Shown piece after piece: positions 18,001 through 21,000 of a stretch of DNA of 64,000 bases. Within the stretch, counting starts at the first letter, position 1. Each line of letters begins with the position of its first letter. Location of the stretch: contig CM074518.1 of NCBI GenBank assembly GCA_037379345.1, positions 42,125,586-42,189,585 on the forward strand, written 5' to 3'. The position numbers were made by a program. Source of the stretch: Perna viridis (taxonomy: Eukaryota).

Positions 18001-21000
18001 TGAAATGAATCTAGTGTGGCAGAGAACAAAATTGTAGATCTACTGCTGCCATTGGCTAGCCTATTTGTATGTGGGAAAGAAGTAGAGTGAGTAAATCTTA
18101 CCTTGCCAGGACAAAGCCTCTGCACTACCAAGACTTAATCCCTTCCCTGTGGCAATGCCTTTCAACTGGGATCTAGTATCTAAGGTTGAATTGATTGGGA
18201 TCTTGGACACAACCCTGACTTCACCTGGGATCTCATGCTTAATTGATGGGGATGGAGAAAACCATGATACTAAATGAAGTCTAGGACAGGTAAAGTCTAT
18301 CCTGTCCTTCAAGGTAAGGTCTAACAAACACAAACCCTAAGTGCTGAAGTCAGAGGTGATTGGGCCTTCAATGGCACACTTAACAGACCACAACACACAT
18401 ATTTACAGCCTTAATGATACTTGGAATATGGCCCATGCCCTGTGGACACCCACCAGGAAGGTGCATTGTAGGGCTACCTACTGTGAAGGAGCCTAACTGA
18501 TGCTGGACACTAGATACCTTACAGAAGACCAACAGAGGAAGCAGAAATCCAATTGGAAGGTCAACAACAAGAAGGCATTAATTGAGCCACCGGTAACTTG
18601 GCAAGGGGAAGTATGCCTATGCCTATGGGGTAATATGACATTATTCAAGTCACCTTAAACTTGGTCATGGGTATAATACCACATTTATTGATTCATCTGT
18701 AATTTGGCAAGGGGTATGATGTCATAGTATGTTGGCCCATGTCTGAGGTATGATATGACATTTATTAGCTCACCTGTAACTTGACAAGGGATATGATATC
18801 ACAGTTAGCTGACTTGATACAACATTTATTGGCTCACCTGAAACTTGGCAAGGGGTATATTATCACAGTTATTTGGCCTATGTCAGAGGTATGATATGAT
18901 ATTTATTGACTCGCATGGCCCCGTGCAGGTCCGGGTGTCAAAAGAATAGACCTGCAGTAGCGCTAAGCTTGTCGTTAAAGGCGACTAAATAGTGCTCAGA
19001 ACCGTAGTCGGGGGCTAGGGCGCTCTGCCCAAAGAGCAACTGGGATGTGTGCCCCAGGTGGTGGAATGGGGTACCCCTGGCGTGTTACATGCTGGGGTGA
19101 GGCTATAATACGGAAAACCTGACCGCAAACCATAGTGATGCACTGTGTTGGGAAAGATGTCACATTCCTCACACGTTAAAGAACCCTACTGTGGTATTCT
19201 CCCGGAGTAGGAACCATAGGGCTCCGCCACAGGAGGCTAAATTGCCCGACCCTACCCACCTCTCCCTATTTCCAGTGGCAATCAAAATTTGTCGACCCCA
19301 TTGTCCTTGTGTCCCATCCCTTTTTCATTTCATCATCATTTCATGTTCATTTTCTCATCAATTTCATGTTCATAGTCTGAATATAGCTGAAATATTGCTG
19401 CTCGGACGTTAAACCCCAACAAACAAGCAAACAAACAATTGACTCGCATGTAACTTGGCAAAGGGTACGATATTAGTTAGCTAAGATTTTACAACAATTA
19501 TTGGCTCATCTGTAATTTGTCAAGGGGTATAATATCAGTTAGCTGACATAATGTATACAACAATTATTGGCTCACCTGTTACATGGCAAGGGGTATGAAA
19601 TCAAAGTTAGCTGACATGATACGACATTAAATGGCTCACCTTGAACTTGGCAAGGGGTATGATGTCACAGTTATTTGGAATATGCCAGAGGTATGACATT
19701 TATTGGCTCACATATAACTTAGCAAGGAGTATGATATCAGTTAGCTAACATTATGTACACAACAACTATTGGCTCACCTGTTTCTTGGCAAGGAATATGA
19801 TATCAAAGTTAGCTGACATGATACGACATATAATGGCTTACCTGTAACTTGGCAAGGGGTATAATATCACAGTTAGTTGGCCTATGCCAGACAGTTTTCT
19901 GACTGGAGGCATTGTAGTAGTAGAACCTGGAGGTGTTTGGATCAAACAGTTCCCACCACTGATTGTTATCAGTCTTCTTACTGAAATAGAAAAATAGAAA
20001 CATGAGGATAAAATTACTTTCTGATAACACATGTATTATAAAGAAAGGTAGAAGGCAATGCTCATTCATTTCTAAACCATGAAGTTGCTGAGCTTAAGAG
20101 TTGGGGTATCACGCTTTCAAAACCCAAATGCAGGTAATTAGCAAAGTTTTGGAATAATGCTTGAAAGTGGAACCAAATCAGCTTCAAAATGCTTGAGTCT
20201 CACACAAATTCTGTGAGGTTTGGAAAGCCAATTAAGTAAAGTTAAAACCAGCCTCATTCTAATCCAACCATACCAATTTCTTTTAACTATATATGGCAGG
20301 AATTTTCAAACAAAGTTATTAATTTTTAAAACTTGATCAGAAGAAAATCGCAGGAGAGTTTTTTATTCAACAAAACCATTCATTTCTTCCCTTTCTACAT
20401 AGATGTAAGAACTTCTTAATTCAGGCTCATAAGGTTCTCATAATGCAAAAAACATTTGAATGGAATAATATAACTCAGAATTAACATTTGCCCATGATAA
20501 AAGCAGATGACTGACAACTTCCCTATAAAAACTTCATAACCTCTTAAAAAGTAATTGAATTATGCATTGGAATTACATGAAACTCACAAAAAATAATTCT
20601 ATTTAATTATTGGTTGATATTTTACAGCAAAAGTGCAATGAATGCACAATAAACAAAACATGACAAATACATCGCAATTACTATTTAATGCTTTTAACGA
20701 TTGCAAGAAGTTCAAAACTATTGCATAATTCTGTCACTTCTGCTGAGCTTCCAATTCTCTTTATTTTCCCATCTTCTACTATCACTTTTTTCCCCAAAAA
20801 CATGCAGTCATCTTCTTTGAAGATATGGAATCTAATTAGATATCAATTTCTCCCAACATACAAAACCAGACAGTATTTCCTGAGGCGTACAAGATAATAT
20901 GAAATAAACATCTGTCCCTCAATGAATAAAACAGCTGATTTTGCACCTATCATTGTTTTCACTAATGTCGATTTCATCTGCCAGTCAAAACAATGATCTG

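What the first reader, a model, noticed from the sequence alone, without database searches (positions are those of the whole stretch)
18578..19876. Intron carpeted with ~11 copies of the preceding exon's 3' end plus splice donor
Seen: downstream of the WW2 exon (minus strand) the segment encoding roughly [11 protein letters not shown] plus the donor is repeated about 11 times, with the most distal copies among the most decayed and a remnant near 17900-17960. Several copies retain AG|GTGAG donors, while only the real junction has GTAAG. Use of any downstream copy would include the in-frame TAA at 19809-19811. Inference: an exon-boundary-derived minisatellite forming a bank of decoy or alternative 5' splice sites, possibly coupling ARHGAP39 level to NMD, with selection keeping the true donor strongest.
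Basis: partly seen in the sequence, partly recalled or inferred. Interest (0 to 1): 0.7.

Follow-up and report, generated by a model that had tools for sequence, protein, structure and literature searches.

The report
Exon-boundary minisatellite in mussel ARHGAP39 intron
The end of one exon of a mussel ARHGAP39-like gene, with its splice donor, has been copied about eleven times head to tail into the following intron; such repeats are already known from several human genes, and these copies look old and decaying rather than maintained.

Summary
On the minus strand, the last 50 nt of the WW2 exon plus the first 27-30 nt of the intron recur 11 times between 19891 and 18546. A weak twelfth trace lies at 17966-17899. 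Nothing similar occurs elsewhere in the 64 kb, and 0 matches are expected by chance.

The units fall into three types that form a ~202-nt higher-order block, and that block includes the real exon end. A 520-nt SINE-like retroposon with a 13-nt target-site duplication splits the array.

The gene is an ARHGAP39 orthologue of a mytilid mussel, not human. The conserved junction LAKLQ|TLKQ fixes the first donor as the real one. The in-frame TAA is real.

Of 11 copies, 8 keep GT and 5 are still near-consensus (CAG or AAG|GTGAGC). Their donor positions have decayed no slower or faster than the flanking positions (17/99 against 70/374, p=0.77). U1 pairing energy is equal for the real and copied donors.

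This is a known kind of repeat, the boundary-spanning minisatellite (human F7, IFI6, CBS, LMNB2, PDGFA). In F7 only the first donor is used. The decoy/NMD function remains untested.

The parts
19842..19980 (-). WW2 exon of the ARHGAP39-like gene. It ends ...[11 protein letters not shown] in phase 0.
   Evidence: Pfam WW, E 4.8e-07, 30.1 bits against a cutoff of 26.9. 100% identical to Mytilus trossulus ARHGAP39-like isoform X3 (P0014).
19836..19844 (-). Authentic 5' splice site CAG|GTAAGC, G+1 at 19841.
   Evidence: It gives the conserved LAKLQ|TLKQ junction seen in orthologues.
19809..19811 (-). TAA in frame with the exon, 30 nt into the intron.
   Evidence: ORF 19809..20093 ends here.
19438..19891 (-). 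Proximal block of the array: 50 nt of exon, then the real unit u00 and copies u01-u06. Higher-order copy 1 is 19891-19696 and copy 2 is 19689-19494.
   Evidence: TRF periods 64 and 202. BLAST 85.7% over 196 nt, E 8.6e-62. Unit alignment.
19772..19780 (-). Copy u01 donor CAG|GTGAGC.
   Evidence: 7/9 consensus matches, -11.1 kcal/mol.
19706..19714 (-). Copy u02 donor TAT|GTGAGC. GT is kept but the exon side is lost.
   Evidence: 5/9, -4.4.
19634..19642 (-). Copy u03 donor AAG|GTGAGC.
   Evidence: 6/9, -9.6. This unit is 90% identical to the real unit.
19570..19578 (-). Copy u04 donor CAG|GTGAGC.
   Evidence: 7/9, -11.1.
19504..19512 (-). Copy u05, CAG|ATGAGC. GT is lost.
19442..19450 (-). Copy u06, CAT|GCGAGT. 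GT is lost. This unit is the one hit by the retroposon.
18918..19437 (+). 520-nt SINE-like retroposon, antisense to the gene, with an (ACAA)-like 3' tail at 19415-19437.
   Evidence: A second copy lies at 3550-4044, 81.5% identical over 519 nt. Flanked by a 13-nt direct repeat. No tRNA or Rfam match.
19438..19450 (-). Target-site duplication, first copy (CATGCGAGTCAAT).
18905..18917 (-). Target-site duplication, second copy.
18546..18917 (-). Distal block of the array: rest of u06, then u07-u11.
   Evidence: 77% identical to the proximal higher-order copies over 208-241 nt.
18832..18840 (-). Copy u07 donor CAG|GTGAGC.
   Evidence: 7/9, -11.1. This unit is 89% identical to the real unit.
18768..18776 (-). 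Copy u08 donor CAG|GTGAGC.
   Evidence: 7/9, -11.1.
18691..18699 (-). Copy u09, CAG|ATGAAT. GT is lost and the unit is truncated to 43 nt.
18648..18656 (-). Copy u10, AAG|GTGACT.
   Evidence: -6.6.
18585..18593 (-). Copy u11, CCG|GTGGCT.
   Evidence: -4.5.
17899..17966 (-). Degenerate remnant of a further unit. Its GT is lost (ACAG|GGGG).
   Evidence: 28 nt at 92.9%, E 7e-6. The second half has E 0.94. Sequence read.
15783..15875 (-). Next exon (TLKQNTEVRN...PQT). Its acceptor AG is at 15877-15876.

Best explanation
This is an old, degenerating minisatellite whose first unit is the real exon-intron boundary.

Inferred history. A segment of roughly 64-77 nt, made of the last 34-50 nt of the WW2 exon plus the donor and the first 27-30 nt of the intron, was duplicated in tandem by replication slippage or unequal exchange. 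The copies diverged into three unit types. A block of about 202 nt, holding the exon end and one unit of each type, was then duplicated at least twice more. Later a SINE-like retroposon landed in one unit, and the distal units decayed.

Inferred behaviour. Only the first donor gives the conserved LAKLQ|TLKQ protein junction, so it is the functional one. The downstream copies are pseudo-5' splice sites. By analogy with human F7 intron 7 they are expected to be silent, or used at a low level. Any such product carries the in-frame TAA and would be a substrate for nonsense-mediated decay as noise, not as regulation.

Shown: the anatomy, the origin from the exon, the order of events relative to the retroposon, the stop codon, and the equal decay of donor and flank positions. 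Inferred: which donor is used in this animal, and that the array has no function.
For: - Structure. There are 12 in-register units on one strand only and none elsewhere.
- Direction of copying. The exon peptide DIIPLAKLQ is present in 17 of 17 orthologues examined, from mussel to amphibians, so the exon is ancestral and the intronic units derive from it. Copies still translate to recognisable wrecks of the exon, such as ...[16 protein letters not shown] followed by VSHLMSYHVS.
- Three unit types. S (u00, u03, u07) are 87-90% alike, T (u01, u04, u05) 75-86%, and L (u02, u06, u08) 73-77%. On the tree, T has support 81/97, L 64/94 and (u00,u03) 88/86. The three labels together need 2 changes, the minimum possible; 0 of 200 shuffles were as low.
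- The higher-order copy is 85.7% identical over 196 ungapped nt.
- Age. Unit identities of 54-90%, and a retroposon with a target-site duplication inside unit u06 whose sibling is 81.5% identical.
- No sign of maintenance. Donor columns differ at 17/99 cells against 70/374 for flanks (p=0.77). 3 of 11 copies have lost GT.
- Local tendency to form repeats. About 10 separate minisatellite arrays lie in this 64 kb.
- Precedent. Minisatellites whose first monomer spans an exon-intron boundary are described for F7, IFI6 (6-16), CBS, LMNB2 and PDGF. In F7 only the most upstream site is used, and pseudo-sites with consensus values up to 91 do not compete (PMC1557585; abstract, introduction and discussion read).
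Against: - No RNA data for this species could be consulted, so silence of the copies is assumed, not shown.
- The F7 experiments were done in mammalian cells and may not transfer to a mollusc.
- In IFI6 and CBS the two nearest pseudo-sites are used (PMC1557585 introduction; PMC4526556 passage). Some use of u01 here, 64 nt downstream, is therefore quite possible.
- Five copies remain as good by U1 pairing as the real site. For a neutral relic that is not unexpected at about 15-20% divergence, but it leaves room for function.
- The real donor alone carries A at +3, like 6 of 6 authentic donors in the window. That is what selection for discrimination would produce.
- The conservation test has little power: 11 copies that are not independent.
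Confidence: 0.72

Rival explanations
1. One reading: the array is a maintained bank of decoy or alternative 5' splice sites. Their use introduces the TAA and couples ARHGAP39 output to nonsense-mediated decay. Selection keeps the authentic donor the best.
For: - Five copies are near-consensus. Four have U1 duplex energy -11.1 against -11.0 for the real site, and these rank 2nd to 6th of the 225 GT sites in the intron.
- The stop is in frame.
- A at +3 is unique to the real donor, maps to its own branch, and matches 6 of 6 authentic donors in the window.
- In IFI6 and CBS, proximal repeat donors are really used.
Against: - Donor positions in the copies are no better conserved than flanks (17/99 against 70/374, p=0.77).
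- 3 of 11 copies lost GT and 3 more are weak.
- A retroposon sits in the array and the distal units are 54-55% identical.
- U1 pairing energy does not favour the real site.
- The +3 argument rests on a single substitution.
- In F7, identical pseudo-sites are not used at all.
Confidence: 0.1
2. The copies act in splicing without changing the mRNA. Each AG|GT could serve as a zero-length recursive splice site: the real donor is spliced to the copy's AG and a donor is regenerated. Alternatively the copies act as extra U1-binding sites that help define the upstream exon.
For: - 6 of 11 copies have AG directly before GT.
- 6 unit tails, including that of the real unit u00, carry a branch-point-like CTAAC about 31 nt upstream of the next AG|GT.
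- The pyrimidine fraction at -20..-4 is 0.53-0.71, overlapping the 0.65-0.88 of the four genuine acceptors whose position is exact.
- Joining the real exon end to a copy's GT restores CAG|GTGAGC, so the final mRNA would be normal. This last point is read directly from the sequence.
Against: - The intron is only 3966 nt. Described ratchet points lie in long introns (PMC8605326, seen only as a search listing and the start of its abstract).
- 8 of 11 copies have another AG 8 nt upstream that would compete.
- There is no conservation signal.
- It is not testable without lariat or junction reads.
Confidence: 0.05
3. The array belongs to a mobile element or a dispersed satellite that captured an exon fragment, or it is an assembly artefact.
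For: - Minisatellites are dense in this window.
- Bivalve genomes are known for satellite-bearing mobile elements. This is recalled from memory and was not checked here.
Against: - The first unit is the real exon end in perfect register, and the higher-order copy includes 50 nt of the functional exon.
- No copy occurs elsewhere in the window or on the other strand.
- Copies differ by 10-46% and carry a retroposon with a target-site duplication. Collapse or misjoining of reads would not produce that.
Confidence: 0.04

Closest known systems
Human F7 intron 7 minisatellite (37-bp VNTR whose first monomer spans the exon 7 - intron 7 boundary; Borensztajn et al. 2006, PMC1557585)
   Same: A head-to-tail array starts at the exon-intron junction, so the authentic donor is followed by reiterated pseudo-donors. 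Using most of them would truncate the reading frame.
   Different: - F7 units carry only 4 nt of exon, are strictly identical and vary in number between people (5-9 repeats).
- Here each unit carries 34-50 nt of exon and is 64-77 nt long.
- The units here are 54-90% alike, fall into three types within a 202-nt higher-order block, and are interrupted by a retroposon.
- Here the real donor differs from every copy at +3.
- Whether this array varies in length, and which sites are used, is unknown.
IFI6 (6-16) intron 2 and CBS intron 13 minisatellites (as described in PMC1557585 and PMC4526556; the primary paper, Turri et al. 1995, is not held)
   Same: Boundary-spanning repeats that provide extra splice donors.
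   Different: In those genes the two nearest repeat donors are used constitutively and give alternative mRNAs. Here any extension meets a TAA after 30 nt, so no alternative protein is possible.
LMNB2 (100-bp monomers) and PDGF intron 4 (81-bp monomers) minisatellites (PMC1557585 introduction)
   Same: Long monomers of similar size to those here. Only the authentic donor is reported as used.
   Different: These are human genes. I did not see their details beyond the one paragraph I read.
Internal tandem repeats at exon-intron boundaries in human segmental duplications (De Grassi and Ciccarelli 2009, PMC2812944, passages read), and intron gain by tandem duplication of an AGGT-containing segment (PMC3265369 and PMC4974935, listings only)
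   Same: Tandem duplication across or near a splice signal multiplies splice sites and can remodel exon-intron structure.
   Different: Those cases create new introns or new exon ends. Here the ancestral junction is untouched and the copies lie wholly within the pre-existing intron.

Membership tests
Boundary-spanning minisatellite (F7 / IFI6 / CBS / LMNB2 / PDGF type) | Head-to-tail tandem array of 10-100-nt units | tested here: met
   TRF period 64 (6.6 copies) and 202 (2.0 copies). 12 units in register.
Boundary-spanning minisatellite (F7 / IFI6 / CBS / LMNB2 / PDGF type) | The first monomer contains the authentic exon end and donor | tested here: met
   Unit u00 is the real junction. Array homology runs into the exon up to 19891.
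Boundary-spanning minisatellite (F7 / IFI6 / CBS / LMNB2 / PDGF type) | [quoted passage not shown] | tested here: met
   8 of 11 copies keep GT and 5 of 11 read CAG or AAG|GTGAGC.
Boundary-spanning minisatellite (F7 / IFI6 / CBS / LMNB2 / PDGF type) | Pseudo-sites identical or nearly identical to the authentic site (as in F7) | tested here: not met
   No copy is identical: all 11 differ at +3 and units are 54-90% alike. This marks an old, degenerate member rather than excluding the kind.
Boundary-spanning minisatellite (F7 / IFI6 / CBS / LMNB2 / PDGF type) | Copy number varies between individuals (VNTR) | not testable with these tools
   Only one sequence of the locus is available.
Boundary-spanning minisatellite (F7 / IFI6 / CBS / LMNB2 / PDGF type) | The authentic, most upstream donor is the one used | not testable with these tools
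   No RNA data for this species. Indirect evidence only: orthologues P0014 and P0099 join LAKLQ directly to TLKQ.
Regulated unproductive splicing (alternative 5' site or poison exon coupled to NMD) | Using the alternative site introduces a premature stop upstream of further exon junctions | tested here: met
   TAA at 19811-19809 is in frame. At least three exons follow.
Regulated unproductive splicing (alternative 5' site or poison exon coupled to NMD) | Alternative sites conserved above their neutral surroundings | tested here: not met
   17/99 against 70/374 differences from consensus, p=0.77. This is within-array only; no cross-species test was possible.
Regulated unproductive splicing (alternative 5' site or poison exon coupled to NMD) | Junction reads that rise when NMD is inhibited | not testable with these tools
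   No transcriptome resource is available here.
Recursive splice site (ratchet point) | Acceptor AG juxtaposed to donor GT | tested here: met
   6 of 11 copies have this.
Recursive splice site (ratchet point) | Competent acceptor (pyrimidine tract, no competing AG) | tested here: inconclusive
   Pyrimidine fraction 0.53-0.71 against 0.65-0.88 for the four genuine acceptors whose position is exact. 8 of 11 copies have another AG at -8.
Recursive splice site (ratchet point) | Lies in a very long intron | tested here: not met
   The intron is 3966 nt.
ARHGAP39 / Vilse / RhoGAP93B gene | Two N-terminal WW domains | tested here: met
   WW2 exon: Pfam WW 30.1 bits, above the cutoff. WW1 exon (57971-57870): 19.1 bits, E 0.0013, below the cutoff.
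ARHGAP39 / Vilse / RhoGAP93B gene | C-terminal MyTH4 and RhoGAP domains | not testable with these tools
   Those exons lie beyond the window: tblastn with P0014 maps only residues 14-636. P0014 itself carries PF00784, PF00620 and PF00397.
ARHGAP39 / Vilse / RhoGAP93B gene | Best matches are named ARHGAP39 orthologues, collinear over several exons | tested here: met
   P0014 (Mytilus trossulus) is 100% identical on WW2 and 82% on the 481-residue exon. Five exons map in order.

The most novel reading that the evidence does not exclude
The array is not a relic but a working bank of competent pseudo-donors: five near-consensus sites within 1.1 kb of the real one. Splicing leaks to them, at a rate set by U1 or splicing-factor levels, and this diverts part of the ARHGAP39 pre-mRNA to a TAA-containing, NMD-targeted form. 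After the duplications the authentic donor was sharpened from GTGAG to GTAAG, the form of every other donor of the gene seen here, to keep the productive site ahead. If so, a minisatellite born by slippage has become a tuning device for the gene's output.
Probability: 0.07. Interest if true: 0.6.

Novelty: new member of a known kind. Interest (0 to 1): 0.27.

Why it matters
Boundary-spanning minisatellites are natural experiments on how the spliceosome picks one donor among many look-alikes. The cases I found in print are all human genes (PMC1557585). My four relevant searches turned up no invertebrate example and no example with a higher-order unit structure, but the library lacks most subscription journals.

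This locus offers an old example in a mollusc. It has a graded series of pseudo-donors, from perfect to dead, and a real donor that differs from all copies at one position. A minigene or RNA-seq test here would show whether the rule that the most upstream site wins holds outside mammals.

As it stands it is an ordinary by-product of repeat-prone DNA and says nothing special about ARHGAP39.

Tried and rejected
- Rfam scan of 18500-20000 (0 matches at E<=1) and tRNA scan of 18800-19500 (0 genes). These gave no handle on the retroposon's family.
- Search for short proteins (30-50 aa) resembling the exon plus read-through ORF, hoping to find pseudo-copies in other genomes. There was 1 candidate and 1 hit, P0145: unnamed, 78% identical. 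I did not use it because its origin is unknown.
- Search of this intron for a microexon beginning Lys-Phe, like the inserts in Argopecten and Dreissena isoforms. No AG|AARTTY...|GT candidate was found.
- Pyrimidine content as a test of the recursive-splicing idea did not discriminate. Two of the six 'genuine acceptor' rows in that call (26986 and 5535) were placed only approximately by tblastn and should be disregarded.
- A 30-nt fuzzy regex scan missed most copies. It was replaced by a Hamming scan.
- The 32-nt minisatellite just downstream of the WW1 exon (57639-57790) was read by eye as a possible second exon-end array. It shows no likeness to that exon's end. BLAST of the other five donors found no copies (0 of 5).
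- Turri et al. 1995 (the IFI6 minisatellite) is not held.
- A gradient of decay from proximal to distal was rejected in favour of a periodic pattern.
- Capture by a mobile element and assembly artefact were rejected; see the rival explanations.
Exons were handled one at a time.
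Full report
**Where we are.** The window has 30-37% G+C throughout. On its minus strand it carries the 5' half of an ARHGAP39-like gene. I do not take it for human.

- The exon at 19980-19842 has a Pfam WW domain (30.1 bits, cutoff 26.9).
- That exon is 100% identical to 'rho GTPase-activating protein 39-like isoform X3 [Mytilus trossulus]' (P0014), which carries WW, MyTH4 and RhoGAP domains.
- tblastn of P0014 against the window, exon by exon, places five exons in order: 57971-57870 (WW1), 19980-19842 (WW2), 15875-15783, 8977-8897 and about 5535-4122.
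- An unnamed transcript-like protein, P0099, uses another first exon near 26986-26888.
- The long disordered exon is only 82% identical to Mytilus and 56% to the next relative, Argopecten. The animal is probably a mytilid mussel of another genus.
- The MyTH4 and RhoGAP exons lie outside the window.
- I built no joined coding sequence. All searches were made exon by exon.

**The junction.**
- The WW2 exon ends ...AAGTTACAG, and the intron begins GTAAGCC with G+1 at 19841.
- The next exon starts at 15875 after TTTCAG.
- The intron is 3966 nt and in phase 0.
- The joined peptide LAKLQ|TLKQNTE is what P0014 and P0099 show.
- Among 17 orthologues chosen (16 named, from molluscs to amphibians, plus P0099), 17 of 17 have DIIPLAKLQ and 15 of 17 continue directly with TLK. 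The exon end is therefore ancient, and the first donor is the productive one.
- Reading on from the exon into the intron gives [10 protein letters not shown] and then TAA at 19811-19809.

- A 20-nt pattern across the exon end and GT has 9 matches with up to 3 mismatches. All lie on the minus strand at 18589-19859, against none in 100 shuffles.
- A 30-nt core finds the real site plus 11 copies and nothing else on either strand of the 64 kb.
- A profile of the units finds 14 significant pieces, all in 18546-19886.
- BLAST of the array against the window finds only itself and a 28-nt piece at 17939-17966 (92.9%, E 7e-6).
- Of the six donors of the gene in the window, only this one has copies: 0 of 5 others.

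With the retroposon removed, the spacing between successive copies runs 64, 66, 72, 64, 66, 62, 77, 64, 77, 43, 63 nt. The units fall into three types.

| Type | Length | Units | Identity within type | Feature |
|---|---|---|---|---|
| S | 64 nt | u00 (the real one), u03, u07 | 87-90% | starts with the short exon piece |
| T | 62-66 nt | u01, u04, u05 | 75-86% | starts with the short exon piece |
| L | 72-77 nt | u02, u06, u08 | 73-77% | its tail repeats a longer piece of exon, from TCTGGCATAGG |

- A maximum-likelihood tree is weak, as expected for about 70 columns. It recovers T (81/97), L (64/94) and the pair u00+u03 (88/86). The three labels need only the minimum 2 changes; 0 of 200 shuffles were as low.
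- The types alternate S-T-L, giving a 202-nt higher-order period (TRF 2.0 copies).
- 19891-19696 and 19689-19494 align without gaps at 85.7% (E 8.6e-62). A third copy at about 18916-18677 is 77% identical.
- So the block that was re-duplicated began 50 nt inside the functional exon.
- Identity to the real unit is therefore periodic along the array (66, 73, 90, 72, 70, 75, 89, 78, 76, 54, 55%). It is not a gradient; only the last two copies and the remnant are clearly the most decayed.
- Copies still translate to recognisable wrecks of exon plus intron, for example ...[26 protein letters not shown].

**The insertion.**
- 18918-19437 is not repeat units.
- It is flanked by a perfect 13-nt direct repeat (19450-19438 and 18917-18905) that restores unit u06 when the insert is removed.
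- It ends in an (ACAA)-like tail on the plus strand.
- It has a sibling at 3550-4044 in the same orientation, 81.5% identical over 519 nt.
- It has no tRNA or Rfam match.
- I read it as a SINE-like retroposon that landed in an already existing array.
- Diverged units and a mobile-element insertion with a target-site duplication argue against an assembly artefact.

**The donors**.

| Site | Sequence (-3..+6) | Matches to consensus | U1 duplex energy (kcal/mol) |
|---|---|---|---|
| Real (u00) | CAG\|GTAAGC | 8/9 | -11.0 |
| u01, u04, u07, u08 | CAG\|GTGAGC | 7/9 | -11.1 |
| u03 | AAG\|GTGAGC | 6/9 | -9.6 |
| u10 | AAG\|GTGACT | 6/9 | -6.6 |
| u02 | TAT\|GTGAGC | 5/9 | -4.4 (weak) |
| u11 | CCG\|GTGGCT | 5/9 | -4.5 (weak) |
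| u05 | CAG\|ATGAGC | 6/9 | -4.4 (GT lost) |
| u09 | CAG\|ATGAAT | 6/9 | -1.7 (GT lost) |
| u06 | CAT\|GCGAGT | 6/9 | -1.8 (GT lost) |

- 8 of 11 copies keep GT, 6 have AG|GT and 5 are near-consensus.
- Among the 225 GT sites of the intron, the four best copies and the real site rank 2nd to 6th by pairing energy. First is a site inside the retroposon.
- By this measure the real donor is not the strongest.

**Is there selection on the copies?**
- Across the 43 gap-free core columns, the copies' nine donor positions differ from the array consensus in 17 of 99 cells. The other columns differ in 70 of 374 (Fisher p=0.77). GT differs in 3 of 22.
- That fits neutral decay, with neither maintenance nor purging.
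- The caveats are that 11 copies are few and they share ancestry.
- The exon-derived columns differ less (26/198) than the intron-derived ones (61/275). I put this down to the three unit types differing mainly in the intron-derived part, and did not test it further.

- All 11 copies have G at +3 and only the real site has A.
- On the tree this is one change on the real unit's own branch. The simplest history is that the donor was GTGAG when it was copied and became GTAAG afterwards.
- All 6 authentic donors in the window have A at +3: five GTAAG and one GTAGG.
- This is what sharpening of the real site would look like. It is also a single G-to-A change in an AT-rich genome.
- Gene conversion among copies is an alternative I cannot exclude.

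**How it most likely works.**
- Tandem duplication across the boundary is shown.
- Growth first as single units and then as a three-unit block is inferred from the unit types.
- Insertion of the retroposon is shown.
- Slow decay is shown as divergence.
- The first donor is used and the rest are pseudo-sites. This is inferred from the conserved junction.
- The literature describes exactly this kind of repeat. The introduction of Borensztajn et al. 2006 (PMC1557585; abstract, introduction and discussion read) lists minisatellites whose first monomer spans an exon-intron boundary in F7, IFI6 (6-16), CBS, LMNB2 and PDGF.
- In F7 all pseudo-sites are functional when tested, but only the most upstream is used. 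Pseudo-sites with consensus values up to 91 do not compete.
- In IFI6 and CBS the two nearest are also used (also PMC4526556, one passage).
- De Grassi and Ciccarelli 2009 (PMC2812944, passages) report 27 intron modifications by tandem repeats at exon-intron boundaries in human segmental duplications.
- Low-level use of u01, 64 nt downstream, is therefore plausible here. It would give a TAA-containing RNA that NMD should remove. I see that as noise rather than regulation.

**Rivals.**
- The decoy/NMD reading remains possible but has no positive support beyond the +3 position.
The units even carry a CTAAC about 31 nt upstream. However, the intron is short, most copies have a competing AG at -8, and the pyrimidine test was uninformative.
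- Capture by a mobile element and assembly artefact are unlikely for the reasons given above.

**What stayed unchecked.**
- RNA evidence in this species.
- Copy-number variation.
- The nature of the 610 nt between u11 and the remnant.
- Paper supplements (closed).
- My statement that I found no invertebrate or higher-order example in print rests on searches of a library that lacks most subscription journals.

**Verdict.** It is a new, old-looking member of a known kind of repeat. Nothing here shows a function.

Noticed in passing
window 15876-19841 (the same intron); proteins P0064 and P0106: Annotated isoforms of two other bivalves carry short inserts exactly at this junction. Argopecten irradians X7 has 11 residues and Dreissena polymorpha X4 has 5, both starting Lys-Phe, between LAKLQ and TLKQ. 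The orthologous intron therefore hosts alternative microexons elsewhere. No matching AG|AARTTY...|GT candidate was found in this window's intron.
   Followed up: partly
window 3550-4044 (+): A second copy of the 520-nt SINE-like element lies about 80 nt downstream of the donor of the long exon (G+1 at 4121). It is 81.5% identical to the copy inside the array and in the same orientation.
   Followed up: partly
window 57639-57790: A 32-nt minisatellite (4.5 copies, 78% matches) begins about 80 nt downstream of the WW1 exon donor. By eye it is not derived from that exon's end. BLAST of that donor finds no copies.
   Followed up: yes
window 17202-17359: A 40-nt minisatellite (4.0 copies, 93% matches) lies in the same intron. 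Each unit carries a weak AAG|GTGAA donor-like site. It is unrelated to the exon.
   Followed up: no
window 62206-63981: A 47-nt satellite with 38 copies at 96% matches. In all, about 10 separate tandem arrays lie in the 64 kb, so this genome region is very prone to forming repeats.
   Followed up: no
window 17967-18545: About 580-610 nt of G+C-richer, non-repeated sequence separates the last unit from the remnant at 17966-17899. It has no second copy in the window. It may be another insertion that split the array's tail. I did not look for a target-site duplication.
   Followed up: no
window 26888-26986 (-): An alternative first coding exon is used by the unnamed protein P0099. It bypasses the WW1 exon and has the donor CAG|GTAAGT at 26885.
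   Followed up: partly
window 17860-17898: A (CT)n/(GA)n microsatellite of about 19 repeats directly follows the remnant unit.
   Followed up: no
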